DNA of 64,000 nt from an uncultured Gammaproteobacteria bacterium (GTDB lineage: Bacteria > Patescibacteriota > Patescibacteriia > Magasanikbacterales > GWA2-37-8): the NCBI GenBank assembly GCA_964407865.1, contig CAYOXC010000003.1:12760-76759 (forward strand), given 5' to 3'. Positions 323 through 63,673 of the stretch are shown in pieces. The stretch's first letter is position 1. Each line of letters starts with the position of its first letter. A program made the translations under genes and the position numbers. Under the pieces are notes generated by a model that ran no database searches, had not been told where the DNA came from, and worked only from the letters and a program-made list of their open reading frames with translations.

Positions 323-2971
323 TTAATTATTATCTTTTCTCATTAATAAACTCCATATTTCATCTTTGTTCAAATCGATCGGCCCGATAGCTATGCCATT
401 GCTGGCCAAAGTTGTATTATTCCCGTCAGTCCAGTTTGGATGCCATGGTGCTGGATAAATAATTTGGCTTTCAAAAGAAGATTTAACTCCGGACTGTTTT
501 TGCACAACCAGTTGATAGCGAGAAGTAAAATAATTTTCATTTATTATTTTTCGGAATAAGTTATTCTCAGGATTTTGGCTGGGTTCGTCTAATTTAAGCC
601 TAAAAGGAAGCTGGTAGGTAAACTGAACTTGTCGTGTTTCGCCGGGCTCTAAAATTAGCCAATTACCAAATGCAGTTTTGCCAAATTCTTCAGTTATTCT
701 AGTACCAGACTGAGCATCAATTCTTATTTCTTTTTCAATGGCTAGCAAAAATTCGTCTTTGACGCTACCAGTTAAAGGAGCGCGAAATTTTCGTTCATCC
801 GGCCAGGTAAAACCGCCAGCGTTAATTAATTCACTGCCTTTTGGCACGTAAACGCGAATATAATTTATATTTGTTGATCCGTAAAGTTTTTGTGAAGGGT
901 CGCCAGTATGTTCCCGCGTGATAACAACAGTATCAATTATTGAGCCGTCATCAGTGACAACAACCTCATGATTAATTGTTTGTTTTATTTGTGCATCTGA
1001 TTTTTGTCCTTGTATGTTTGTGTTTACTACCATTAGGTAATCCTGCTCTGGTTTAATAGGTAAAATCTGACCGCTCCAGCCAAAACTTTTTATTGTATCT
1101 TCTGTTTCTTTATCAGTAAAATAGGCCTGTACCTCTTTGCCTTCCAAAGCTTCAGCCAAATTAACCATAAGCGGCATGGTTTTACTTGGGCTAGCGCTAA
1201 AAATATAGCTGATAATTTGCGGCGCTAGATCAGTAATAATTTGTTTTGGCCTGTTGTCAGCTTTTTCCGGACCTTCTTCAACAATATGCTGTATTTGAGT
1301 TATGGCAGTAGAAGAGGTTAGAGTAATTGAACGGGTTTCATCTGTAATCGGACCGAGTATGGCAATCAGCCGTTCCAGAACAGTGGCGTTAATAGCCAGT
1401 ACTCCGTCAGCTGTAATTTGACGCGCATGGCGGTAGAACCAGAGCATTTTTTCCGCGCTAGTAGGAAAATCAGCAAACCAATTTGCATCTTGAAATTCCC
1501 AACGGCGGTTAGTTAAAAGAAGCGGTACGGGTGGTTCAACAGAAACATCCAACTGGCCTTGTAGGTCATAGGATCCTCCAGGTGGTATATTTAAACCGAC
1601 TATTTTTCCGTCTTTAATATCAATTAGGGCAAAGCTGCCCAAAAATCCTCCGCTTGGCCTGATTTCATGCGGGTTTTGAAAAACTACGAGATAGCGTCTG
1701 TAGCCATTGCCGCCAAAAATTTCATCCACCACCTTTCCCAAATCAATAATATTATTCAAATCATCAAGAACCGCGGCAAAGAGTATGCGAAAATCTTTGA
1801 ATGCAGCTTGGTATTCAAAAGGCAGCACTTTTTCATCTACTGAACTAAGATCTTCAAGAGCATCGTTGTAGTTGGGCGTTGCTGCTTCTAAAAATTGAGT
1901 TAATATTTTAATTCGTTGAGTTAAAGTTTCGTTATTGTTTGTCTGGCTTTCACTGATGCCTTGTATCAAATATTGATTACCCAGTGCAATTTTTTGACCG
2001 GCAGTAATTAATTTTTGCCGCGATTGTACTTCGTTGGAGAGAATTGGTACGGCTGAAACGATTTTTTGCAGAAGTCGATGGTTGTCCTGTATAGCCTGAA
2101 TGGCGTTTTCAAATTTTTTTAGAGCTTCTGCCACTGAATGTTCAGCACTCATGATATCTGCCGAAAGAATTGCAGCAGTGGATTCTTGTAGCGCCATAAA
2201 ACCTTGTGTACCCTCGGCGGCAATTTCGCTAGTCGTTATTTTGACTGATTGGTAGTAGGAGTGTGCTTGAAAGGGGATAATACAGATAAATAAAAATACG
2301 GCTGTTCGCCAAGATAATTTAAAAATTAAATTTTTTAGCGGTAAAGTCGGCTCTGTTTTTATTTTGTTGCTCGCTATATTTTCAGCACTATCATCAATAT
2401 CAAAAATTGTTAAATCAATAATTGGTTCCGGAGTTATTTTATCGACCGATTCGTTAATCGTTTTATTTTTAACTGTTATATTAGTTTTTTCTATACTTTC
2501 CTCACGGAGAATTTTTTCCGCGATCGGCGCTTTAGCTGTTTCGACCTGGTTTTTTTTCATAGCTCGTTCCATACGAGCCATTTCTTTTGCTGCTTTTCGG
2601 CCTTCCTGCCATGAGTCAATACGGGAGAAAATATAATTTCTTAAAAAATCTTTTTTTGGTTTTAAATTTACCTTTGTTGCTATTATTACTTCTTTTGTTA
2701 TTTTTTGTTTTGTTTCTAGTTCTTGTGCTTGGCTGTTTTCAGGAGAAAAAGTTGCAATTTCTGACCAAGGATTATTATTTTGTTTGAGGTCCACAACATA
2801 GGGTGAGCGTATCGCTTGTTTTTTTTCATATAGAACCATTTTAATCGCTGATTTTTTCGGCGCTTCTTCCGTTTTTTGAGTAGCTAAAAATATCGGGCAG
2901 CGTGCTTTGTTGTGGCCCGGTTTGTGGCAGATAGTGCAAGCTCTAAGTTGAGGGCGTCGTCTTTTTTTCAT
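323..2971 (-). CDS. Large membrane protein with a DUF4012-like central domain and an N-terminal CCHC zinc-knuckle-like motif
   Basis: 882-aa ORF. The N-terminus is ...CTICHKPGHNKARCP. One TM segment follows. The block YLVVFQNPHEIRPSGGFLGSFALIDIKDGKIVGLNIPPGGSYDLQ is typical of the DUF4012 family found next to cell-wall glycosylation genes. Confidence 0.55.
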   Translation of the reverse strand: MKKRRRPQLRACTICHKPGHNKARCPIFLATQKTEEAPKKSAIKMVLYEKKQAIRSPYVVDLKQNNNPWSEIATFSPENSQAQELETKQKITKEVIIATKVNLKPKKDFLRNYIFSRIDSWQEGRKAAKEMARMERAMKKNQVETAKAPIAEKILREESIEKTNITVKNKTINESVDKITPEPIIDLTIFDIDDSAENIASNKIKTEPTLPLKNLIFKLSWRTAVFLFICIIPFQAHSYYQSVKITTSEIAAEGTQGFMALQESTAAILSADIMSAEHSVAEALKKFENAIQAIQDNHRLLQKIVSAVPILSNEVQSRQKLITAGQKIALGNQYLIQGISESQTNNNETLTQRIKILTQFLEAATPNYNDALEDLSSVDEKVLPFEYQAAFKDFRILFAAVLDDLNNIIDLGKVVDEIFGGNGYRRYLVVFQNPHEIRPSGGFLGSFALIDIKDGKIVGLNIPPGGSYDLQGQLDVSVEPPVPLLLTNRRWEFQDANWFADFPTSAEKMLWFYRHARQITADGVLAINATVLERLIAILGPITDETRSITLTSSTAITQIQHIVEEGPEKADNRPKQIITDLAPQIISYIFSASPSKTMPLMVNLAEALEGKEVQAYFTDKETEDTIKSFGWSGQILPIKPEQDYLMVVNTNIQGQKSDAQIKQTINHEVVVTDDGSIIDTVVITREHTGDPSQKLYGSTNINYIRVYVPKGSELINAGGFTWPDERKFRAPLTGSVKDEFLLAIEKEIRIDAQSGTRITEEFGKTAFGNWLILEPGETRQVQFTYQLPFRLKLDEPSQNPENNLFRKIINENYFTSRYQLVVQKQSGVKSSFESQIIYPAPWHPNWTDGNNTTLASNGIAIGPIDLNKDEIWSLLMRKDNN

Positions 2972-6441: not shown

Positions 6442-7860
6442 TTACCACGCTCCTTTTCGCCGCAGCACTACAAATGGTGTTTTTATAAGAATAATTAAGT
6501 CAATTAACAAGCTCCATTTTTCAACATAAAAAGCATCAAGTTTTACCTCTTCTTCAAAGGTTAGATTGCTACGACCGGATATTTGAGCCAATCCGGTGAT
6601 GCCAGGTTTTATTGCTAGAACAATTTTTTGGTGTTTTTCGTATTTTTCAACTTCACGCGGTTGATGTGGCCTTGGTCCGACCAAGCTCATGTCACCTTTA
6701 ATTACATTAATAAATTGCGGTAGTTCATCTATGCTAAAGCGGCGGATAAAATGACCAAATTTGGTTACCCTCGGATCGTCGGCAATTTTATAAACAGGCC
6801 CTTCTTTAATACTTTTCTTCCTGATAAGTTCCTCTTCTTTTTTAAGCGCCACTTCTCCGGCATCTCCAAACTGCTCACCGGTACAGTCTTTTTGATGCAT
6901 TGATCTGAATTTATAGGCGAAGAATTTTTTGCCATTAGCGCCAACTCGTTCGTTTTTATAAAAAATCGGACTTCCCGTTTCAAAAAGAATTATTATTGAA
7001 GTTATTAAATAAATTGGAGAGCAAATGATTAATAATATAAAGCCGCCGATAATATCGGCTGTGCGTTTAAAGATGCGACCCCAGCCGGTTAGTCTGGTTC
7101 GACCGAGCTCTATTATCGGTATGCCGGCAACAGTATTGATCGTCATGTTAGCAGAAATAGTTTCAAATAGATCCGCAGAATATTTAAAAATAATATTATT
7201 TTCATTGGCAAATTCAATTGTTTGAATCGCTTCTGACTCGTGCGCTTTTGGGTCTGTAAAAATTATTTCATCAGGCTGTATCCTTCCTATTTCGTTTGCC
7301 GTTGAACGGTCAAAGTGTGAATAAATACCAATTACTTTGTAACCAAAACCTGGCCTCATTAAAAATGCTTCCTTTATTGTGTCAGCAACTGTTTCTGAAC
7401 CAATGATAACAACATTGGATTGACCGATACCAACGCTGTAAAAAAGACGTTTCAGTCCGAGCGTGATTAACCGAATAATTATGACGAAAAAAATTGCCAA
7501 AACCCATCCAGCCAGCACTAGAAAGCGCGAATCAAATCTTTGTAATGTAAAAAAGACATAAATAGTGATACCAGCAAATCCTGTCGAACAAGCAAAAATT
7601 ATACGCCAAAAATCTCGCGCCATTCTGCGCGGCGGATAAGTGTTATATAATCCTGAGAGGGCAAAAATAATTATCCAAGTCGCAGCGACGATTAAAACTA
7701 CCGGCCAAAAATCATCCCAGGTAATATTAAAAACAATCGGCCTAATTGCTTTCATGTACTCGGTATAACGCAGAGAGTAGGCGGTGAAGCCGGCCAATAC
7801 AATAGCCAAATAGTCTAGAGGAACTTGGAAAAAGGCAAAGAACAATTCAAATTTTTTCAT
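6442..7860 (-). CDS. Polyprenyl-phosphate hexose-1-phosphate transferase (WbaP/CpsE-like bacterial sugar transferase)
   Basis: 472 aa. Multiple N-terminal TM helices. C-terminal catalytic region with PIFYKNERVG...KFRSM...DELPQFINVIKGDMSLVGPRP, the hallmark of the bacterial sugar transferase family. Confidence 0.8.
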   Translation of the reverse strand: MKKFELFFAFFQVPLDYLAIVLAGFTAYSLRYTEYMKAIRPIVFNITWDDFWPVVLIVAATWIIIFALSGLYNTYPPRRMARDFWRIIFACSTGFAGITIYVFFTLQRFDSRFLVLAGWVLAIFFVIIIRLITLGLKRLFYSVGIGQSNVVIIGSETVADTIKEAFLMRPGFGYKVIGIYSHFDRSTANEIGRIQPDEIIFTDPKAHESEAIQTIEFANENNIIFKYSADLFETISANMTINTVAGIPIIELGRTRLTGWGRIFKRTADIIGGFILLIICSPIYLITSIIILFETGSPIFYKNERVGANGKKFFAYKFRSMHQKDCTGEQFGDAGEVALKKEEELIRKKSIKEGPVYKIADDPRVTKFGHFIRRFSIDELPQFINVIKGDMSLVGPRPHQPREVEKYEKHQKIVLAIKPGITGLAQISGRSNLTFEEEVKLDAFYVEKWSLLIDLIILIKTPFVVLRRKGAW

Positions 7861-8831
7861 AACAATTCTTTAATTTTATTTTTTATTTGATGCAATACTT
7901 CATCATCATGGTCAGTTTTTATGCCCTCATCAATTTTTTTAACATAAATTGATTCAATTTTATCAGCCAATTTAGATATTGTTTCAATATAAGCAGGTGA
8001 TAAACCCCTGTGATTTTTTGCTTCTTGAACATAAAAATTTAACTGAGCGGTTATCTGCGAAAGCATTAACATTTGTGCCGGATGAGTGGAAATCTGAGTT
8101 TTTAAGGCATCTAATTTTCTACGATCCAGCTCATTTTTTCTTTCTTTTGTTTTTAGGTCTTCTATGTCTGCAGCTTTTTCTACCAGATTCATAGCTGTTG
8201 AACTTTCAAATCCTACAACCAGTGGAATAACATTGTCTAAAGAACCATGGCTTTGATCAATTGGTGATTCAAAATATTTCACTCGACGATCGTTGGAATT
8301 TCTACTAAAGGCCTTGCGACGACAAAGATCTATTTTTTTATTAATTACGTCAGTATTTTTTGCGGATGTGACATCCAAGCTTAAAGCAATTGGATTGTCT
8401 TCTGATCCAAATTGAAGTATCAAATCAACCCCATTAAAATAATCGTCAAATTTTGTCGTTCTTGAAGTATATGCTTCTTCACCAAACCAATCGTAAAGCT
8501 CGCCAAAATCAACAACTAATATTTCCATTGCTTCACTTAATTTTTTGGTAGTTTCACGTTCTTCAGCATCAGTTGGAGACTTTTTTCTTTCTTCTTCCAA
8601 GTTTTCTTGATACCCTGTTTCTTTTTGTGCTACACGAGCAGTATCTTTTTTTATTTCATCTTTTTGATATATATCGCTAAAATCATAAAGATCCGGCCTC
8701 TTTTCGTGGTTTTGAATAATTTTTTCGCACAGTCGATCAATGTGTCTTGCATACATTACCTCTCTTTTTCTTGATACAGGTTCAAATTGCTCCACTTGTT
8801 TATATGCTTCAACTGGACACATATTTAACAT
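7857..8831 (-). CDS. Hypothetical protein, charged/coiled-coil rich
   Basis: 324-aa ORF with 4-nt overlap to the downstream gene; no recognisable motif. Confidence 0.4.
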   Translation of the reverse strand: MLNMCPVEAYKQVEQFEPVSRKREVMYARHIDRLCEKIIQNHEKRPDLYDFSDIYQKDEIKKDTARVAQKETGYQENLEEERKKSPTDAEERETTKKLSEAMEILVVDFGELYDWFGEEAYTSRTTKFDDYFNGVDLILQFGSEDNPIALSLDVTSAKNTDVINKKIDLCRRKAFSRNSNDRRVKYFESPIDQSHGSLDNVIPLVVGFESSTAMNLVEKAADIEDLKTKERKNELDRRKLDALKTQISTHPAQMLMLSQITAQLNFYVQEAKNHRGLSPAYIETISKLADKIESIYVKKIDEGIKTDHDDEVLHQIKNKIKELL

Positions 8832-8943: not shown

Positions 8944-10014
8944 CTACCAGTTTAGATCTGGGTCGGTAAAGTCAATTTGGCGGTTGCTGATGAAAGGGAT
9001 GATTTCACTGACTGAGAAAGTGCTTAAAATATGAACAACATCTCGGATTTCGGTTTGGTATAAAGTTACCACTTCGTAGTCGGTCATCAGTGCCAATAGC
9101 ACGGCCGGATCAACTTCAGCAACTTTTTCCTTTATCAGTTCGTATGCATTTTCTAACATTGATGGCAATATTCGATGCCGGTTTAATTTCGGATAAACCG
9201 TATACATGGCCTTTTTAAGCAAGGCGAATTTTTGCGCTTCTTCTGATTCAGCGAAGGAAACATATCCTTTTTCTGCTGTTTCTACACAAAGAGCAGCGAC
9301 ACAGCGGCCGGTACGAATGCGTTGGTATGGCCCAAACCATTCAATTAATTCCTGTACATCGGGATAATCTTCAATTTTCAAATAACCGCGTTTGAAGATG
9401 TCGCTCACATCGGAGAAGCAATAGGCGATCTTGTCGGCATACATTACCACATCGGCTTCGGGTGAAACCTGAGAGGTGGTCATCGTTCCCTTGCCCCGTG
9501 AATGCGCGGCGATTCCTTGCAGTGTTTGCATGGTTAGGTTTAGACCGCGTGTTTCTCGTTCAATGTGCTGGGCAATGACACAGGCAAAAATTTCGTGCCG
9601 GAATTTTTTTCCAGTAACGGAAGAAATAAACTCTTCGCCAATATGGCCGAAAGGAGCGTGTCCGATGTCGTGGCCGTATGCACTGGCTTGAGCCAAAGAC
9701 GTGTTCAGACCAAGTGTTTCAGCGATCACGCCGGCAATACTAGCTACTTCAATCGTGTGAATAAGCCTGGTTCGAACGTGGCGATTGGTTTTGGGGTCGG
9801 GAAACACCTGTGTTTTTGTAGCTAAACGGCGGATGGCCTTGCTGTGTTGAATTTTGTATACGTCAAGAATATACTCGCCGCTTATTGGTCCAATGTAGTC
9901 ATCTACATCGACCTCGCTGGAAAATTTTCTTCTTGCTTTATTTGATTTTGTAGCAGAAGAGCCGAGACAACCCTGTACCTCTTTGAATTTATTATAAAGA
10001 GCTTGTTCGTTCAT
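8944..10014 (-). CDS. HD-domain phosphohydrolase, dGTP triphosphohydrolase-like
   Basis: 356 aa; HD motif context HDIGHAPFGH plus a second DK..Y motif, typical of the dGTPase-like HD family. Confidence 0.6.
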   Translation of the reverse strand: MNEQALYNKFKEVQGCLGSSATKSNKARRKFSSEVDVDDYIGPISGEYILDVYKIQHSKAIRRLATKTQVFPDPKTNRHVRTRLIHTIEVASIAGVIAETLGLNTSLAQASAYGHDIGHAPFGHIGEEFISSVTGKKFRHEIFACVIAQHIERETRGLNLTMQTLQGIAAHSRGKGTMTTSQVSPEADVVMYADKIAYCFSDVSDIFKRGYLKIEDYPDVQELIEWFGPYQRIRTGRCVAALCVETAEKGYVSFAESEEAQKFALLKKAMYTVYPKLNRHRILPSMLENAYELIKEKVAEVDPAVLLALMTDYEVVTLYQTEIRDVVHILSTFSVSEIIPFISNRQIDFTDPDLNW

Positions 10015-10099
10015 TTATTCCTCCTTATTGTTCTGGCTTTAAGCTACCAGATGTTCAGCAAATGTCAAGAAACTATATTCAATAGAGCTATTAATAGAT

Positions 10100-10203
10100 T
10101 TTACTGGGTTGACTGCGTACAATCATTTCGCGATCACGCGGTCAATCGCGTAGGCCATTAGGCCTTATACGCGATTGACAAAACCCTTATTTTATGCTAT
10201 ATT
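10100..10203 (+). promoter_or_regulatory. Promoter module for rnpB: nested ACCGCG-containing palindromes followed by a sigma70 -35 TTGACA (10175..10180), a 17-nt spacer and -10 TATATT (10198..10203)
   Basis: TTGACA/17 nt/TATATT ends about 6 nt before the RNase P P1 helix. The upstream part carries ttgactgcgtacaa / cgatcacgcggtcaatcgcgta / ttatacgcgattgacaa palindromes. A second copy of the whole module is at 60176..60275. Confidence 0.6.
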
Positions 10204-10208
10204 TATTA

Positions 10209-10599
10209 GGTTCATTACAGGCAATCGCTGTGTATATTTATACATGGAGGAAAGTCCGAACACGCCCGCGCACATTTTACGCGGAGCAGGGTAGCGGGTA
10301 ACGCCCGTCGGGAGTGATCCCAGAGGTGCGAGCAGAGACGTCTGTGGTCGAAAGGCCAAAGAGAGCAAACCCCAAGTAGTTGATTAATCAATTATGAGCT
10401 TAGCTTCAATCAAGGGGATAAAAGATTGAAGGTGAAACGGCTAAATCCTTACCTGCGTGCAAGAGCAATGTTTCCGTTTTTAAATGGATTCAAAAAGTTA
10501 GCTCGCTTGATCGCTTAAAGTAATTTACGCGACAGATAAATGATTGCTCTCTGACCTTGCGTCGGAGTACAAAATTCGGCTTATTATAATGAACATTAA
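10209..10599 (+). ncRNA. rnpB: RNase P RNA (bacterial type A)
   Basis: Conserved blocks ggaggaaagtccg (10247), agggtagcgggtaacgcc, aaagagagcaaacc, aaggtgaaacgg and ttcggcttat near the 3' end. The P1 pairing is 10211..10219 with 10588..10596. An intrinsic terminator follows immediately. Confidence 0.8.
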
Positions 10600-22981: not shown

Positions 22982-23262
22982 AATTTTTCTATTGCTTTAT
23001 GTTAGCAGAAAATGATGTTTTTTGCTAATTAACGTGTAAAATGAAAAAACCTCGGATAAGGAGCTTGAAAAAGAGTGGAGTTATTATAGTCATTTGGAAA
23101 GAGGGGTTTATTTACGCAACCGACGTATCAAAAAATCGAAGGTTGTGAGTACGGATGAATGAGAACCTGCCTGTCGGTAGGCAGGCCATCAACTTACAGC
23201 TTACCCGAGCAGGAAGGCTTTTCAGAGAAAAAATGTCGCTCACAAAAAATAAGAATATTTCG

Positions 23263-23335
23263 TGCGCCTGGATGGATTTGAACCATCGACTTCCACCTTA
23301 TAAGGGTGGCACTCTAACCGCTGAGTTACAGGCGC
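23263..23335 (-). tRNA. tRNA-Ile with the unusual anticodon UAU
   Basis: Minus-strand read GCGCCTG TA ACTC AGCGGTTAGAGT G CCACC CTTATAA GGTGG AAGTC GATGG TTCAAAT CCATC CAGGCGC A gives a canonical cloverleaf. Anticodon positions 34-36 read TAT. Confidence 0.65.
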
Positions 23336-27192: not shown

Positions 27193-27215
27193 ACCGTGTT
27201 TTACTAGAATGATGG

Positions 27216-27250
27216 AATAAAAAATAACCGATATATCGGTTATTTTTTAT
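27216..27250. terminator. Bidirectional intrinsic terminator between queA and rplK
   Basis: aaaaaataaccgatatatcggttatttttt. Confidence 0.6.
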
Positions 27251-27289
27251 AATTTTTCAATTCAGTAATTACAAACTACAAATTATTTA

Positions 27290-59414: not shown

Positions 59415-60143
59415 ATGTTTAATAAAATTTTACAATCAATTAAAGATTTGTTATTTCCTGTTTTTTGTGTTAAATGCGGTTTGGAGGGAGATTGGTTGTG
59501 TGAGAAATGTTTTTTAAAGGTTCAGCTTAAACCTGTTTTGCGTTGTCCTGCTTGTCGTAAAAAAAACGACGGATCGCTTTGTCTTGGCTGTCAGGGGTTT
59601 TTTTCATTGGACGGCGTATGTGCCGTGTTTGAATACAAGGAAGATGAACCGCTCGGACAATTGGTAAGGGATTTTAAATATCATTACGCGCGCGATATTA
59701 TATTTGTTTGGAAAAAAATATTCGAACAATTTTTTGATTCAGATTGTCCAGATTTTTTAAATGGTGAAAATCAATGGACGGTAGTCTCGGTGCCGCTATA
59801 TCCAAGGCGGGAACGTGAAAGAGGGTATAATCAAGCAGCGCTTTTAGCTCAAATTATTTGCCAAAAAATAAATTCATTAAAACCAGAAAAAGTACTTGTG
59901 ATGAATAATATTTTAAAACGCGTTCGTCCGACATCGCAACAGGCCAAATTAACCAAAGAAGAAAGAGTAAAAAATGTTGAGAATGCGTTTGTCGTGATAT
60001 CTGAAAATATTCCTAAAAATGTTATTTTAGTTGATGATGTTTTTACATCAGGCGTCACACTTTTTGAGTGTGCCCGTTTATTAAAGCAGAGTGGTGTAAA
60101 GCGCGTTTGGGCGATTACACTTTCAAGGAGCTTGTTTGATTAG
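59415..60143 (+). CDS. comFC: ComF-family protein (ComFC-like phosphoribosyltransferase-domain competence protein)
   Basis: N-terminal Cys4 zinc ribbon (CVKCGL...CEKC...CPAC...CLGC) and C-terminal PRTase motif VILVDDVFTSGVTL. Confidence 0.75.
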   Translation: MFNKILQSIKDLLFPVFCVKCGLEGDWLCEKCFLKVQLKPVLRCPACRKKNDGSLCLGCQGFFSLDGVCAVFEYKEDEPLGQLVRDFKYHYARDIIFVWKKIFEQFFDSDCPDFLNGENQWTVVSVPLYPRRERERGYNQAALLAQIICQKINSLKPEKVLVMNNILKRVRPTSQQAKLTKEERVKNVENAFVVISENIPKNVILVDDVFTSGVTLFECARLLKQSGVKRVWAITLSRSLFD

Positions 60144-60175
60144 GGATTGATCCGGTAGAGCTCTTTAGAGATTCT

Positions 60176-60275
60176 ACCGGGTTGACCGCGTATAATCGCT
60201 TTGCGATCACGCGGTCAACCGCGTAGGTCATAAGCCTTATACGCGGTTGACAAAATGGCTAAAATATGCTATATT
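60176..60275 (+). promoter_or_regulatory. Second copy of the rnpB promoter module: palindromes plus -35 TTGACA (60247..60252), a 17-nt spacer and -10 TATATT (60270..60275)
   Basis: ggttgaccgcgtataatcgctttgcgatcacgcggtcaaccgcgtaggtcataagccttatacgcggttgacaaaatggctaaaatatgctatatt is ~85% identical to 10104..10203. The similarity extends to gttcatta just downstream of the -10. Confidence 0.6.
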
Positions 60276-60335
60276 CTTTCGTTGGATAAGTTCATTAAAA
60301 ACACCAAAAAACCCGAAAGGGAAGGAGAGTAAAAA

Positions 60336-60989
<654 letters not shown>

Positions 60990-61007
60990 CCTTTCCTCAT
61001 TGCTCTT

Positions 61008-61035
61008 TTCAAACATTGCCCCGACATCACGTCGG
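61008..61035 (+). terminator. Intrinsic terminator after the D/T-repeat gene
   Basis: ccccgacatcacgtcgggg + ttttttt. Confidence 0.65.
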
Positions 61036-61042
61036 GGTTTTT

Positions 61043-62614
61043 TTATATTTTTTTCCAGATTCGACAGATTTGATCTTCGTACACCAAAATCCATTCATTG
61101 CTTCGCGTTAGCATTTTTTCAAGCTGAGATTCTTCTTCCATGTGAATTAAAGAAAGATCGCGATTTGAAAAAATAATCCTATTAACAACATTCGGTTTGG
61201 GATAAGAAGATATATTGCGGTTTATAATTGCATAATTTGCTTGTGTGGAATTGAGCTCTCTTAAACCGTTAATTTCAAATTTCATTTGTCTATATTTTTT
61301 TAGGAGATTCATACCCTCATTATTGTTCCAGGTGACTGTACCGCGGCCATCGAGATAAACAAGCGCTTCCGGCAAGCTCCAGTTAAGATAGCCACCCCAG
61401 CGGAATTCGTTAAATAGAAAAATGTTATTTCTTAATCCTTCCTGCTTCAGAAACAGTGTTGCTTGATAAGGATAAGGCCGGTGGGCAAGGTATTTAGGGT
61501 CTGTCCAAATATCACTTGAGACATAAATACTGCTTGCGTTAAATGCAATTATGATCAGCCCAAAGGCAATATATATACAGAGGCGTATTATTTTTAAATT
61601 AACCTTATTCAATTTCAGAAGCGACATAATTTTTGCTTCAGCTTCGGTCAGTGCGATGGATATTATTGGCAAACTAAAAAAAACGAGATATAGATTGTTC
61701 CTTTTATAACTCCAGGCCGCATAAAAGAAAGCGGCAAAAAGCAAAAGCTCGGCAAGAGAAAGCCGTTTATTTTTATATCCGATGACGGCAAACACCGCGG
61801 CCACAGAACCGATAATTAGCGGTAGAAGATAAACTGGATATGCATAGCTCGGTATCCATTCGTTAATAATTGTTTTAAAATATGTCCCCTGGGATATATA
61901 AGCGGCAATTTCGCCGTATATTTTTAGACCATAGGGGTTAGCTAAAACGGCGATCGCGGAAATGACTAGCCAGATAGCAATTGTGAAAAATGTTTTTGCA
62001 GACCAGTTTGTCTCTTTTCCAGAAAATAGCGGGAAGTAGCGTTTTAAGATAATAGCGAACAGATTGCCACCGATATATATGAATGTAATAATGAATCCTA
62101 TAAACCAACTGCCGTGTAGGATTGACCAAAGCCAGAAGATAAAAGGCCATAAATATAATAAATTTTTTTGCGGCAACACCTTAAGGGTGTAGATAAGCGG
62201 GGGTATAAGTGCAAGTACCACAAAAGCCGGTCTGACAGCAAAAATGAAGTCAAGGGACCAGACGCAGAAAATTGCAAGTAAAATTGAAAGTGGAGATAAT
62301 TTATTAGTAAATATTTTTACTATCCATAAAAAAGCCAGCCAAATAATAACAGCTATGGTTATGGATAAAGCAAAGTAGCCAAGGTCGGCGTAAATTAACC
62401 AGAAAAAAAGGTCACTGCCCCATTCGTGGTTTGTCCAGGGCTCGCCAAAATTTGTCCAGGTGTAGCTATCCGTGTATTGAAATTGCCCAGCAAAAGCATC
62501 CATGCCAAAGCGAAGATGCCAGCCAAGGTCAGCATCAATTATATTAGCGACAAGATGAAGTGTTAGAACAAACCCAGCTGTAATAAGTATGATTTTTGTG
62601 ATTTTTTCAAGCAT
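61043..62614 (-). CDS. Polytopic membrane protein (~14 TM), possibly a GT-C-type glycosyltransferase (ArnT/PMT-like or DUF2079-like)
   Basis: 523 aa; hydrophobic throughout with short loops; only a low-specificity resemblance. Confidence 0.3.
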   Translation of the reverse strand: MLEKITKIILITAGFVLTLHLVANIIDADLGWHLRFGMDAFAGQFQYTDSYTWTNFGEPWTNHEWGSDLFFWLIYADLGYFALSITIAVIIWLAFLWIVKIFTNKLSPLSILLAIFCVWSLDFIFAVRPAFVVLALIPPLIYTLKVLPQKNLLYLWPFIFWLWSILHGSWFIGFIITFIYIGGNLFAIILKRYFPLFSGKETNWSAKTFFTIAIWLVISAIAVLANPYGLKIYGEIAAYISQGTYFKTIINEWIPSYAYPVYLLPLIIGSVAAVFAVIGYKNKRLSLAELLLFAAFFYAAWSYKRNNLYLVFFSLPIISIALTEAEAKIMSLLKLNKVNLKIIRLCIYIAFGLIIIAFNASSIYVSSDIWTDPKYLAHRPYPYQATLFLKQEGLRNNIFLFNEFRWGGYLNWSLPEALVYLDGRGTVTWNNNEGMNLLKKYRQMKFEINGLRELNSTQANYAIINRNISSYPKPNVVNRIIFSNRDLSLIHMEEESQLEKMLTRSNEWILVYEDQICRIWKKI

Positions 62615-63400: not shown

Positions 63401-63673
63401 TTATGTAATTTTTATCGCCTTGCCGTTTATTAGTGCCTCGGCGATTTTTTTATAGGCAGAGCCCAAAATTCTCTGAAGAGTGCTGGTTGAAGTGTTCATT
63501 TTTTTGGCGCATCCGGCCTGGTCAAAATCCTCTAAATTTTTTAATCTTATTGCTTCAAGTTCTTCAGTGGTTAACTCAACAATTTCCAAATTTTTCATTT
63601 GGATTCCTTGAGGTTTAAAGTAAGTAACGCGTGGATTAATGCGTATGCGACGGCAAAGTCTTGGTCTTGGCAT
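63401..63673 (-). CDS. DUF134/UPF0251-family predicted DNA-binding protein
   Basis: MPRPRLCRRI...LTTEELEAIRLKNLEDFDQAGCAKKMNTSTSTLQRILGSAYKKIAEALINGKAIKI matches the DUF134 HTH pattern. Confidence 0.65.
   Translation of the reverse strand: MPRPRLCRRIRINPRVTYFKPQGIQMKNLEIVELTTEELEAIRLKNLEDFDQAGCAKKMNTSTSTLQRILGSAYKKIAEALINGKAIKIT

What the first reader, a model, noticed from the sequence alone, without database searches (positions are those of the whole stretch)
10100..10220. The rnpB promoter module (palindromic ACCGCG array plus consensus sigma70 promoter) is duplicated upstream of a GC-rich foreign-looking gene
A ~100-nt block is ~85% identical between 10104-10215 and 60180-60290. Both copies contain nested palindromes (TTGACCGCGTATAA...ACGCGGTCAACCGCGT...TTATACGCGGTTGACAA), then TTGACA, a 17-nt spacer and TATATT, and even the first transcribed nucleotides (gttcatta). 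One copy drives RNase P RNA. The other drives the high-GC Asp/Thr-repeat secreted protein at 60336. This suggests promoter capture or duplication for a horizontally acquired gene, or a shared operator for a dimeric regulator.
Basis: seen in the sequence. Interest (0 to 1): 0.6.

Follow-up and report, generated by a model that had tools for sequence, protein, structure and literature searches.

The report
Propagated palindrome-plus-promoter cassette
A block of about 125 bases, nested palindromes joined to a near-perfect promoter, sits in front of two unrelated genes (RNase P RNA and a small secreted protein) in an uncultured Patescibacteria genome; relatives lack it at both places, and a shorter related copy precedes a third gene in another genome, so it looks like a spreading promoter cassette and not an rnpB-specific control module.

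Summary
The repeat is real. Window 10079-10203 and 60152-60275 are 80% identical (palindrome part 84%; blastn E 5e-16). These are the only two copies in the window, and independent assemblies reproduce both. Copy A lies just upstream of rnpB (Rfam RF00010). Copy B lies 61 nt upstream of a GC3-rich Asp/Thr-repeat lipoprotein gene.

The "rnpB promoter module" reading does not hold.
1. The core promoter (TTGACAAAAnnGCTAAAATrTGCTATAwT, then N5-GTT) is a generic consensus. It occurs at more than 120 metagenomic loci before all kinds of genes.
2. Six relatives have rnpB and the divergent HD gene with back-to-back -35 boxes 10-52 nt apart and no palindrome array. The array is therefore a roughly 95-nt lineage-specific insertion.
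3. The orthologous Asp-rich gene in a relative (L133) sits at the same place with a different promoter, no array, and its own GTTCATT in the 5' UTR. Copy B is a promoter replacement in a long-resident gene, and "gttcatta" was not copied from rnpB.
4. A syntenic relative (MAG STC_31) carries a shorter homologous palindrome-plus-promoter (49/60 identical to copy A) before an orphan 77-aa gene, at a site that is empty in the window.

Best reading: a propagating promoter cassette with REPIN-like hairpins that show compensatory changes. This is a new member of a known kind. What the hairpins do is unproven.

The parts
10079..10174 (.). Copy A of the palindrome array: Pal-0 (10079-10107, inner CTATT/AATAG 10088-10097), Pal-1 (TTGACTGCGT 10109-10118 / ACGCGGTCAA 10136-10145) and Pal-2 (GTCAATCGCGTA 10141-10152 / TACGCGATTGAC 10168-10179, with inner GGCC-ATTA-GGCC 10153-10164). 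It is inserted between the divergent HD-gene and rnpB promoters.
   Evidence: absent from the orthologous spacer in L008, L010, L011, L110, L135 and L136
10175..10203 (+). Core promoter A: -35 TTGACA (10175-10180), 17-nt spacer, extended -10 TGcTATATT (10195-10203). It has a T-rich spacer, CCCTTATTTTATGC.
   Evidence: spacer type shared with L138
10209..10599 (+). rnpB, RNase P RNA class A. The P1 5' strand GGUUCAUUA (10209-10217) pairs with UAAUGAAC (10587-10594). P3 is minimal.
10041..10068 (-). Predicted promoter of the divergent HD (dGTPase-like) gene: -35 TTGACA (reverse complement of 10063-10068), 16 nt, TGgTAGCTT (reverse complement of 10041-10049). The same architecture is seen in the relatives.
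   Evidence: read; inference, and the simple scan does not list it
8944..10014 (-). HD-domain (dGTPase-like) gene, divergent from rnpB. Used as the synteny anchor.
59415..60143 (+). comF-like gene. Its stop codon (60141-60143) lies 8 nt before copy B, with no canonical terminator in between.
60152..60246 (.). Copy B of the palindrome array, with all stems perfect: Pal-0 60152-60180, Pal-1 60182-60218, Pal-2 60214-60251, and the outer pair ACCGCGTATAA 60185-60195 / TTATACGCGGT 60237-60247.
60247..60275 (+). Core promoter B: TTGACAAAATGGCTAAAATATGCTATATT. It differs from the generic consensus only at the degenerate w position (T for the majority A), and is 28/29 identical to the rnpB promoter of relative L135.
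60276..60335 (+). 5' UTR of the Asp-rich gene: generic start motif GTT (60281-60283), GTTCATTA (60290-60297), RBS GGAGAG (60324-60329). It is orthologous to the L133 UTR and not to rnpB.
60336..60989 (+). 217-aa lipoprotein-like gene: a signal peptide with native composition, an Asp/Thr/Ser repeat and a Cys-rich C-terminal domain with GC3 0.72-0.79. Only two homologous clusters were found (P0121, P0122).
61018..61046 (+). Canonical intrinsic terminator closing the Asp-rich gene transcription unit.

Best explanation
The repeat is a propagated promoter cassette. It consists of a roughly 95-nt block of nested, REPIN-like palindromes joined to a near-perfect sigma-70 promoter of the type that uncultured Patescibacteria-like genomes use very widely.

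Shown:
(1) In this lineage the palindrome block was inserted between the originally back-to-back promoters of rnpB and the HD gene.
(2) The same block plus a consensus promoter replaced the weaker native promoter of a long-resident Asp-rich lipoprotein gene just after comF.
(3) A shorter homologous palindrome-plus-promoter lies before an orphan 77-aa gene in a syntenic relative, at a site that is empty in the window.

Inferred: the promoter half works as an ordinary strong constitutive promoter (TTGACA, 17 nt, TRTGnTATAwT, start at GTT). It gives high expression to whatever lies downstream. The palindromic half is kept able to form hairpins. It is most likely the part that makes the block recombinogenic or mobile, either as single-strand hairpins recognised in trans or by palindrome-stimulated ectopic gene conversion between the many near-identical consensus promoters. 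It may also insulate the promoter from upstream transcription. On this reading, rnpB and the lipoprotein gene share the block through common descent of a selfish or opportunistic element, not because they form a regulon.
For: Repeat statistics and independent assemblies.

Generic nature of the core promoter:
- About 105 are distinct and only about 11 are rnpB. The rest precede protein, tRNA and rRNA-leader sequences.
- The derived consensus includes N5-GTT.

Insertion at rnpB:
- Alignment A3 shows orthologous flanks and a gap of about 95 nt in L008, L010, L011 and L110. L135 and L136 show the same.
- More distant rnpB promoters have GGTCAAC directly abutting TTGACA.

Replacement at locus B:
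- L133 has VirB4-p193-comF-[Asp-rich gene]-membrane gene in the same order.
- Its promoter is TTGACAATTTTGAGTTTTTGAGGTATAGT, with no array and with GTTCATTC in its UTR.
- L134 has a similar non-array promoter.
- L053 and L099 have comF and the membrane gene adjacent with no gene between them.

Third family member:
- L138/L139 (MAG STC_31; GyrB 78%, NusG 92%, L11 86% identical; colinear over 20 kb) has CCGCGTAG-CCCGAAGGG-CCTT-TACGCGG-TTGACAAAACCTTTAATTTATGCTAACTT after the rplK terminator.
- It is 49/60 identical to copy A. That is the top score among 173 held promoters, above the orthologous rnpB promoters.
- It shares a rare T-rich spacer with copy A (3 of 183 promoters).
- Two further assemblies reproduce it.
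- The orthologous window site (27193-27289) is empty.

Hairpin maintenance:
- Compensatory double changes are seen at A10081-T10105 vs G-C, A10090-T10095 vs C-G, and T10146-A10174 vs C-G (C-G also in L138).
- The inner stem is GGCC/GGCC in A against GCCC/GGGC in L138.
- 94% of cells are paired, against 26-38% when the partners are slid.

A second pair of repeated upstream blocks (secG/secE) shows that upstream-region copying recurs in this genome.
Against: - The source genome could not be scanned. Only 2 copies were seen in 64 kb, and none in 0.9 Mb of other held loci, so 'dispersed' rests on three copies in two genomes.
- The L138 hit was found with a pattern that fixed 21 of its positions. 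Its significance rests on the remaining roughly 39 positions (28 identical), and hairpins next to -35 boxes are common in these genomes (33/92).
- No transposase, RAYT or clear target-site duplication was found.
- Copy B's core promoter is as close to the generic consensus and to L135's rnpB promoter as to anything else. A plain one-off copy from an ancestral rnpB promoter is therefore not excluded.
- With three sequences the covariation test is weak (60/500 shuffles reach the observed value).
- Quasi-palindrome template switching could produce 'compensatory' changes without selection.
- No transcription data exist.
Confidence: 0.6

Rival explanations
1. One-off segmental duplication. After a palindromic insert arose upstream of rnpB, the rnpB upstream region (array plus native promoter) was copied once by illegitimate recombination in front of the Asp-rich gene. 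Nothing is mobile, and the STC_31 similarity is coincidental.
For: - The array and promoter are contiguous in both copies.
- Copy B's core promoter is 28/29 identical to the rnpB promoter of the closest relative L135, and 27/29 to those of L008 and L010.
- Relatives show that this promoter type is ancestral at rnpB, while the Asp-rich gene's ancestral promoter is different.
Against: - Copy B matches the generic consensus equally well, so its similarity to rnpB promoters is not diagnostic.
- Copy A's spacer groups with L138 and not with the orthologous rnpB promoters.
- All stems are perfect in B but defective in A, which is unexpected if B is simply a copy of equal age.
- GTTCATTA is not part of the copied segment.
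- A homologous module exists at a third, non-orthologous locus in a relative.
Confidence: 0.22
2. Shared operator array. The ACCGCGT/ACGCGGT (CGCGTA...TACGCG) inverted repeats, centred about 35-100 nt upstream of the start sites, are binding sites of a dimeric DNA-binding protein that co-regulates rnpB, the lipoprotein gene and the STC_31 gene. A candidate lead is the sigma-70-region-4-like DUF134 protein at 63401-63673, since every box carries a -35-like TTGAC.
For: - CGCGTA/TACGCG are invariant in all three copies.
- The central 7-2-7 palindrome ACGCGGT-CA-ACCGCGT has a typical operator geometry.
- ACCGCGT is enriched in the window (13 seen against 4.4 expected), mostly because of the two arrays.
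- A small HTH gene lies 3 kb from copy B.
Against: - The boxes are absent upstream of the orthologous genes in every relative examined, so any regulon would be very young.
- The spacer between half-sites itself forms a covarying mini-hairpin, and symmetric double substitutions keep pairing rather than sequence. That pattern fits structure and not protein recognition.
- The downstream genes are functionally unrelated.
- No binding data exist.
Confidence: 0.15
3. Insulator or terminator hairpins. The array is a U-tract-less transcription stop, or an RNA 3'-end stabiliser, that shields a strong promoter from read-through (comF at copy B). As a cruciform, it might absorb supercoils between divergent promoters (copy A).
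For: - There is no canonical terminator between comF and promoter B.
- Hairpins of at least 7 bp occur within 66 nt upstream of 33/92 generic promoters, against 7/92 control segments.
- Three of the four single-sided differences that weaken a stem in copy A are G-T on the + strand, and so are compatible with RNA G-U pairs.
- The right arm of Pal-2 contains the -35 TTGAC.
Against: - At copy A no upstream transcription runs into the array, because both flanking promoters point away from it.
- In STC_31 a canonical terminator already precedes the module.
- L133 manages without any hairpin at the same comF junction.
- Folding is equally strong on both strands.
Confidence: 0.1
4. Chance or convergent similarity of two strong promoters.
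For: The 29-nt core is explained by the shared consensus.
Against: The 92-nt GC-rich array upstream is 84% identical, with blastn E 5e-16, and has no other match in the window or in 0.9 Mb of related loci.
Confidence: 0.01

Closest known systems
Putative mobile promoters (PMPs; Matus-Garcia, Nijveen & van Passel 2012, PMC3488235; Nijveen et al. 2012, PMC3575422)
   Same: These are highly similar (at least 80% identical, 50-100 nt) intergenic upstream sequences found in front of non-homologous genes in one genome, sometimes shared between genomes. They are interpreted as recruited promoters that rewire expression. The pair here meets that operational definition (125 nt, 80%; array 84%), and a relative carries a related copy.
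   Different: PMPs were defined for upstream regions of protein-coding genes in complete genomes, whereas one target here is an RNA gene (rnpB). The promoter half here is also a generic consensus, so only the palindromic half proves common descent. No mobilisation mechanism is known for PMPs in general either.
REP / REPIN / BIME elements (Di Nocera et al. 2013, PMC3733652; Nunvar et al. 2010, PMC2817692; Bertels & Rainey REPINs, from my own knowledge)
   Same: These are short GC-rich imperfect palindromes in AT-richer intergenic DNA. Units occur as adjacent pairs in opposite orientation that can fold into a larger hairpin, and stems are kept by compensatory changes. A GTAG lies next to the inner stem in all three copies.
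   Different: REPs occur in tens to hundreds of copies, mostly downstream of genes between convergent or co-directional ORFs. They carry an unpaired GTAG/CGTC tag and are linked to RAYT transposases. Here only 2 copies are seen per 64 kb, copy A lies between divergent genes, the GTAG is partly inside the outer stem, no RAYT was seen, and the element is welded to a promoter.
Promoter-carrying MITEs such as Neisseria Correia elements (from my own knowledge; review PMC10969869 was listed but not read)
   Same: These are small non-coding inverted-repeat elements that land in intergenic DNA and supply or create outward-facing promoters for neighbouring genes. Copy B has a perfect 11-nt terminal inverted repeat (ACCGCGTATAA/TTATACGCGGT) flanked by GTTGAC on both sides.
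   Different: There is no unambiguous target-site duplication, no parent IS, and no demonstrated copy-number expansion. The homology between A and B also extends about 30 nt beyond the putative inverted repeats on the left.
Consensus sigma-70 promoters with an extended -10 (TRTG) and conserved spacer AT-tracts (Kuo et al. 2025, PMC12641261)
   Same: TTGACA, a 17-nt spacer with an A-tract next to the -35 and an AT-tract next to the -10, TGn, TATAAT-like -10, and a purine start 6-7 nt downstream. This matches the broadly conserved architecture that the paper describes.
   Different: The degree of conservation of the whole 29-mer across more than 120 metagenomic loci is unusually high. The start motif N5-GTT was derived here and not taken from the paper.

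Membership tests
Putative mobile promoter (PMP) | Intergenic upstream sequences of 50-100 nt or more with at least 80% nucleotide identity within one genome | tested here: met
   100/125 identical (80%); array 77/92 (84%); E 5e-16
Putative mobile promoter (PMP) | Located upstream of non-homologous genes | tested here: met
   rnpB and a 217-aa lipoprotein-like gene; the related copy lies before an orphan 77-aa gene in STC_31
Putative mobile promoter (PMP) | Actually functions as a promoter | not testable with these tools
   Sequence only: 11/12 hexamer matches, 17-nt spacer, TG extension. No TSS or expression data.
Putative mobile promoter (PMP) | Secondary arrival at the locus (absent at the orthologous sites of relatives) | tested here: met
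   rnpB site: 6 relatives lack the array. Asp-rich gene site: L133 and L134 lack it. STC_31 site: empty in the window.
REP / REPIN / BIME | 20-40 nt imperfect GC-rich palindromes able to form stem-loops | tested here: met
   Pal-1 is 37 nt and Pal-2 is 38-39 nt; fold z-scores are -5.2 and -9.3
REP / REPIN / BIME | High copy number in the genome (tens to hundreds) | tested here: inconclusive
   2 copies in 64 kb; 1 copy in 20 kb of STC_31. The source genome is absent from the searchable collections.
REP / REPIN / BIME | Unpaired GTAG or CGTC tag at one end of the palindrome | tested here: inconclusive
   GTAG precedes the inner mini-hairpin in A, B and L138, but GTA is paired within the outer stem
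REP / REPIN / BIME | Neighbouring units in opposite orientation forming a larger hairpin | tested here: met
   In B, Pal-1 and Pal-2 overlap at GGTCAA, and their outer ends pair (ACCGCGTATAA/TTATACGCGGT). The MFE structure of B is one long nested hairpin.
REP / REPIN / BIME | Located mainly downstream of genes, between convergent or co-directional ORFs | tested here: not met
   Copy A lies between divergently transcribed genes. B and the STC_31 copy lie between co-directional genes.
REP / REPIN / BIME | Associated RAYT (Y1) transposase in the genome | not testable with these tools
   None among the window ORFs scanned or with precomputed Pfam hits. The rest of the genome was not available.
MITE | Terminal inverted repeats | tested here: met
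   11-nt perfect inverted repeat at 60185-60195/60237-60247; degenerate in A
MITE | Target-site duplication and a related autonomous IS | tested here: inconclusive
   GTTGAC flanks both ends in B, but it overlaps the palindrome itself. A-B homology also extends left of it. No IS was seen in the window.
Operator of a dimeric transcription factor | Conserved half-sites upstream of orthologous target genes across relatives | tested here: not met
   The boxes are absent upstream of rnpB and of the Asp-rich gene in all relatives examined
Operator of a dimeric transcription factor | Demonstrated protein binding | not testable with these tools
   No binding data. The DUF134 HTH protein at 63401-63673 is only a lead.
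Bacterial RNase P RNA class A (the gene after copy A) | Match to RF00010 above the gathering score, with P1 and P4 in place | tested here: met
   107.7 bits against a cut-off of 100, full-length 1-367; P1 GGUUCAUUA/UAAUGAAC; GAGGAAAGUCC present

The most novel reading that the evidence does not exclude
A REPIN-like hairpin doublet fused to a consensus promoter is an actively propagating 'promoter cassette' in a clade of Patescibacteria. It inserts at or next to -35 boxes and overwrites resident promoters, including that of the essential rnpB. It can also switch on otherwise silent DNA, as the orphan 77-aa gene in STC_31 would then illustrate. If so, it would be a means of regulatory rewiring, and perhaps of gene birth, in genomes that have very few transcription factors and mobile elements.
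Probability: 0.3. Interest if true: 0.6.

Novelty: new member of a known kind. Interest (0 to 1): 0.35.

Why it matters
Reduced genomes of uncultured Patescibacteria are thought to carry few regulators and few mobile elements, and how they change gene expression is largely unknown. This locus gives a concrete, datable example. A palindrome-bearing promoter block arrived at three non-orthologous sites in two related genomes. At one site it replaced the promoter of a surface lipoprotein gene, and at another it wedged itself next to the promoter of the essential RNase P RNA gene. The work also yields a very strongly conserved 29-nt promoter consensus with a GTT start motif, which could improve promoter and TSS annotation in these genomes. 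It does not reveal a new kind of regulatory system, and the supposed rnpB-specific module turns out to be ordinary promoter propagation.

Tried and rejected
1. Strict array pattern (ACGCGGTCAAYCGCGT-N12-20-ACGCGRTTGAC) in genome contigs and metagenome contigs: no hits.
2. Exact-protein look-up of the Asp-rich protein: not on record. Other assemblies break inside its repeat.
3. Word-indexed homologue search with its C-terminal domain: nothing. The exhaustive HMMER search found two clusters.
4. Pfam on the Asp-rich protein and its neighbours: no family.
5. Rfam at permissive E-value over 60100-61100: only chance-level sRNA hits at the terminator. Copy B therefore does not drive a known RNA.
6. 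nhmmer and blastn-short with the array against 0.9 Mb of held loci: no further members.
7. Homologue search with the STC_31 77-aa protein: it found only itself.
8. The idea that GTTCATTA proves co-duplication of the rnpB 5' end was rejected after seeing GTTCATTC in the L133 UTR and GTTCAC at the L134 start. GTTCATT also occurs in 3 non-rnpB leaders of the generic set.
9. The idea that the array contains a divergent promoter for the HD gene was rejected. The HD promoter is conserved further left (10041-10068), and no -10 follows the inverted TTGAC boxes.
10. The upstream palindrome TGGCTAAnnTTAGCCA, common in other loci, is not in the window.
11. Origin-like or skew features at either site: none.
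12. Polarising the rnpB-site gain against loss from the six relatives alone is not possible, because the window lineage is the most divergent of the seven. The gain reading rests on more distant rnpB promoters that also lack the array.
Full report
OBSERVATION. The two blocks exist as described.
- A global alignment of 10079-10203 with 60152-60275 gives 100 identical columns out of 125. The palindromic part from TAGAGC is 77/92. The 29-nt core promoter is 22/29, with every difference in the spacer.
- A sensitive blastn of either block against the whole window finds only the other block (E 5e-16) and nothing else.
- Contigs assembled independently from three sequencing runs are 100% identical to the window across both copies and their unique flanks. 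The repeat is therefore not an assembly artefact.
- The inverted repeats are real. All stems are perfect in copy B and several are weakened in copy A. Both fold far better than shuffled controls on either strand (z -5.2 and -9.3 on +).
- Each block ends in TTGACA-17 nt-TGcTATATT.
- Copy A is followed at 10209 by RNase P RNA (RF00010, 107.7 bits), whose P1 5' strand is GGUUCAUUA.
- Copy B is followed after 60 nt by a ribosome-binding site and a 217-aa ORF. The ORF has a lipoprotein-like signal peptide, an Asp/Thr/Ser repeat and a Cys-rich C-terminal domain, and it is closed by a canonical terminator.
- The mature part of the ORF has GC3 of 0.72-0.79, against 0.29-0.44 for neighbouring genes. 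The signal-peptide part has native composition.

WHO THE ORGANISM IS. The gene content points to a Patescibacteria (CPR) genome of about 40% GC: comF, a VirB4/PrgI/TraC-like cluster, RNase J, 23S-IVP proteins and a divergent rnpB. So do the best named hits of the HD protein (Magasanikbacteria and Moranbacteria MAGs at 42-49%). The HD protein has unnamed relatives at 66-72% identity. Their contigs keep the order SBP-tRNA-RNase J-rnpB / HD.

THE CORE PROMOTER IS GENERIC. The relatives' rnpB promoters read TTGACAAAACCGCTAAAATATGCTATAAT...GGTTCATTA, so I scanned the metagenome collection for TTGACAAAANNNCTAAAATRTGCTATAWT.
- Of about 105 distinct promoters, only about 11 precede an RNase P RNA. The others precede protein genes, tRNAs and rRNA leaders.
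- The derived consensus is TTGACAAAAnnGCTAAAATrTGCTATAaT, then a-N4-GTT.
- This fits the broadly conserved spacer AT-tracts and extended -10 described by Kuo et al. 2025 (PMC12641261).

Any two strong promoters in such genomes will therefore look alike from -35 to the start. Only the palindrome array shows that copies A and B are related by descent.

THE ARRAY IS AN INSERTION AT rnpB.
- In six relatives (L008, L010, L011, L110, L135, L136) the HD gene and rnpB are transcribed divergently from promoters whose -35 boxes (TTGTCAA ... TTGACAA) are 10-24 nt apart (52 nt in L110). In the window they are 106 nt apart.
- The flanks align on both sides, and the array fills the gap (alignment A3).
- The window lineage is the most divergent of the seven (68-72% HD identity, against 72-88% among the others). 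These six alone cannot polarise gain against loss.
- More distant rnpB promoters in the generic set also have GGTCAAC abutting TTGACA and no array. Gain in the window lineage is therefore the economical reading.
- L008 and L110 carry different palindromes at the same spot. The spacer between the back-to-back -35 boxes seems prone to palindromic growth.

COPY B IS A PROMOTER REPLACEMENT IN A RESIDENT GENE.
- An exhaustive HMMER search with the Cys-rich domain found only two homologous clusters. Both have the same signal peptide/Asp-repeat/Cys-rich architecture.
- One of them lies in L133, from the same sample as relative L010. It sits in the same gene order VirB4-p193-comF-[gene]-membrane protein (VirB4 89%, comF 49% identity) and again has raised GC3 (0.62 against 0.32-0.41).
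- The gene was therefore at this locus before the lineages split. More distant contigs (L053, L099) have comF and the membrane gene adjacent with nothing between them.
- In L133 the gene has a different promoter (TTGACAATTTTGAGTTTTTGAGGTATAGT) that starts 7 nt after the comF stop codon. It has no palindromes, and its UTR contains GTTCATTCAAACAACAA.
- The second homologue, L134, has a similar promoter and starts with GTTCAC.
- So in the window lineage about 125 nt (array plus consensus promoter) replaced about 35 nt of native promoter.
It is 8 nt further from the -10 than in rnpB. The stretch between it and the -10 (CTTTCGTTGGATAA) resembles the L133 leader more than it resembles rnpB.

A THIRD MEMBER ELSEWHERE. 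A looser scan of the species-representative genomes (CGCGTA-N10-20-TACGCGRTTGACAAAA) returned one actinobacterial hit, which I take as chance, and one hit in MAG 'Patescibacteria group bacterium STC_31'.
- That genome is colinear with window 15-36 kb over 20 kb (GyrB 78%, NusG 92%, L11 86%, QueA 66% identity).
- After the rplK terminator it reads ACTGCGTATAG-CCGCGTAG-CCCGAAGGG-CCTT-TACGCGG-TTGACAAAACCTTTAATTTATGCTAACTT, followed by a ribosome-binding site and an orphan 77-aa membrane protein gene.
- It is 49/60 identical to copy A. That is the highest score among 173 extended -10 promoters I held, above the orthologous rnpB promoters.
- It shares with copy A a T-rich spacer seen in only 3 of 183 promoters.
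- Two further assemblies reproduce it.
- The orthologous window interval (27193-27289) holds only a terminator.
- Caveat: the search pattern fixed 21 positions, so the evidence is the 28/39 identities elsewhere. Hairpins next to -35 boxes are common in these genomes (33/92 against 7/92 control). I rate the homology as likely (about 0.8), not certain.

STRUCTURE IS MAINTAINED. Differences between the copies tend to preserve pairing.
- A10081-T10105 against G-C, and A10090-T10095 against C-G, in the first palindrome.
- T10146-A10174 against C-G in the third palindrome (C-G also in L138).
- GGCC/GGCC against GCCC/GGGC in the inner mini-hairpin.
- Three further single changes in A are G-T on the + strand.
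- On the three-sequence alignment, 94% of cells pair, against 26-38% when the partners are slid. However, 60 of 500 shuffles do as well, so the test has little power.
- This argues for hairpin-forming ability, in DNA or RNA, rather than for a protein-recognised sequence. Template switching within quasi-palindromes could give the same pattern without selection.
- At copy A neither flanking promoter transcribes the array, so a DNA-level role, or no role at all, is more likely than an RNA role.

WHAT IT IS AND HOW IT LIKELY WORKS. The block fits the operational definition of a putative mobile promoter (Matus-Garcia et al. 2012, PMC3488235). Its palindromic half resembles REP/REPIN doublets (Di Nocera et al. 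2013, PMC3733652).
- I propose that the promoter half simply provides strong constitutive transcription.
- I propose that the hairpin half makes the block prone to being copied. One route is recognition of single-strand hairpins by a transposase acting in trans. The other is palindrome-induced breaks repaired from ectopic consensus promoters, which offer dispersed 9-11 nt identities (TTGACAAAA, TATGCTATA).
- Neither route is demonstrated. No transposase or target-site duplication was seen, and the source genome could not be scanned.
- A single A-to-B duplication remains possible (0.22). Copy B's promoter is 28/29 identical to L135's rnpB promoter, but it matches the generic consensus equally well.
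- An operator reading (0.15) is weakened because the boxes are absent upstream of the orthologous genes in all relatives examined.
- An insulator or terminator role (0.1) fits only copy B.

VERDICT. This is promoter propagation by a palindrome-bearing block in a CPR genome. It is a new member of a known kind and of moderate interest. It is not an rnpB-specific module and not evidence of a regulon.

Noticed in passing
L010 5616-5861 (-), L011 about 2640-2880 (-), start of the same stem in L135; compare window 10230-10246: In three relatives an 81-aa GIY-YIG nuclease ORF sits inside rnpB, in the sense orientation. It lies in the loop of a long stem (CCCCCCACCACTATTCCAG...CTGGAATAGTGGTGGGGGG) that replaces helix P3, between P2 and the GGAGGAAAGUCC strand of P4. 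The window and L136 have a minimal P3, and L008/L110 have yet another insert. A protein gene embedded in a ribozyme helix may merit its own study.
   Followed up: partly
Metagenome loci L013-L132; window 10175-10203, 47611-47583 (-), 60247-60275: There is a very strongly conserved 29-nt promoter, TTGACAAAAnnGCTAAAATrTGCTATAaT, followed by a-N4-GTT. It occurs at more than 120 metagenomic loci (the scan hit its limit) before many kinds of genes. The last 10 nt before the -35 are relatively GC-rich (0.46 against about 0.33).
   Followed up: yes
Window 15357-15177 (-) and 28738-28522 (-): This is a second repeated upstream block, before the secG-like and secE-like genes. Two boxes are conserved (31/33 and about 36/38), about 135 nt apart in the secG copy and about 180 nt in the secE copy. 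They contain complementary 10-mers (CAACTTCCAG / CTGGAAGTTG), and the second box covers the start codon. There is no Rfam match, and the block is absent upstream of secE in relative STC_31. It is either a shared leader of two Sec translocon genes or another case of upstream-region copying.
   Followed up: partly
Many metagenome loci, e.g. L018, L023, L040, L120 (10-30 nt upstream of the -35): A recurrent palindrome, TTGGCTAA-N2-4-TTAGCCAA, lies upstream of at least 11 of 99 consensus promoters from different contigs. It looks like a widespread operator or UP-like element. The window has no good match.
   Followed up: partly
Window 60336-60989; L133 8001-8492; L134 261-821: The Asp-rich lipoprotein family keeps a high GC3 (0.62-0.79) in two low-GC genomes whose flanking proteins have diverged to 44-49% identity. 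The 'foreign' composition is therefore old and persistent and has not been ameliorated. Only two homologous clusters exist among 1.8 billion representatives.
   Followed up: partly
L008 5940-5977 and L110 about 470-550: Different GC-rich palindromes occupy the same spacer between the divergent HD and rnpB -35 boxes. L008 has a perfect 38-nt palindrome that includes both boxes, and L110 has a decayed version plus a second hairpin and a duplicated TTGAC. The site seems prone to palindrome growth.
   Followed up: partly
Window 7857-8831 (-): A 324-aa ORF without any Pfam match lies between the HD gene and the sugar-transferase gene. Relatives L008, L010 and L011 have these two genes directly adjacent.
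   Followed up: no
Window 23262-23335 (-): A tRNA-Ile with anticodon UAU, an uncommon way to read AUA in bacteria.
   Followed up: no
Window 34547, 36440, 53995, 55340: An AT-rich repeated block, TTTACAAAATTAAAAATTCAAAAATTAAAAATT (67-79% identical copies), lies just upstream of several genes.
   Followed up: no
Window 63401-63673 (-): A small DUF134 protein with weak similarity to sigma-70 region 4, 3 kb from copy B. It is the only candidate DNA-binding protein seen near either copy.
   Followed up: no
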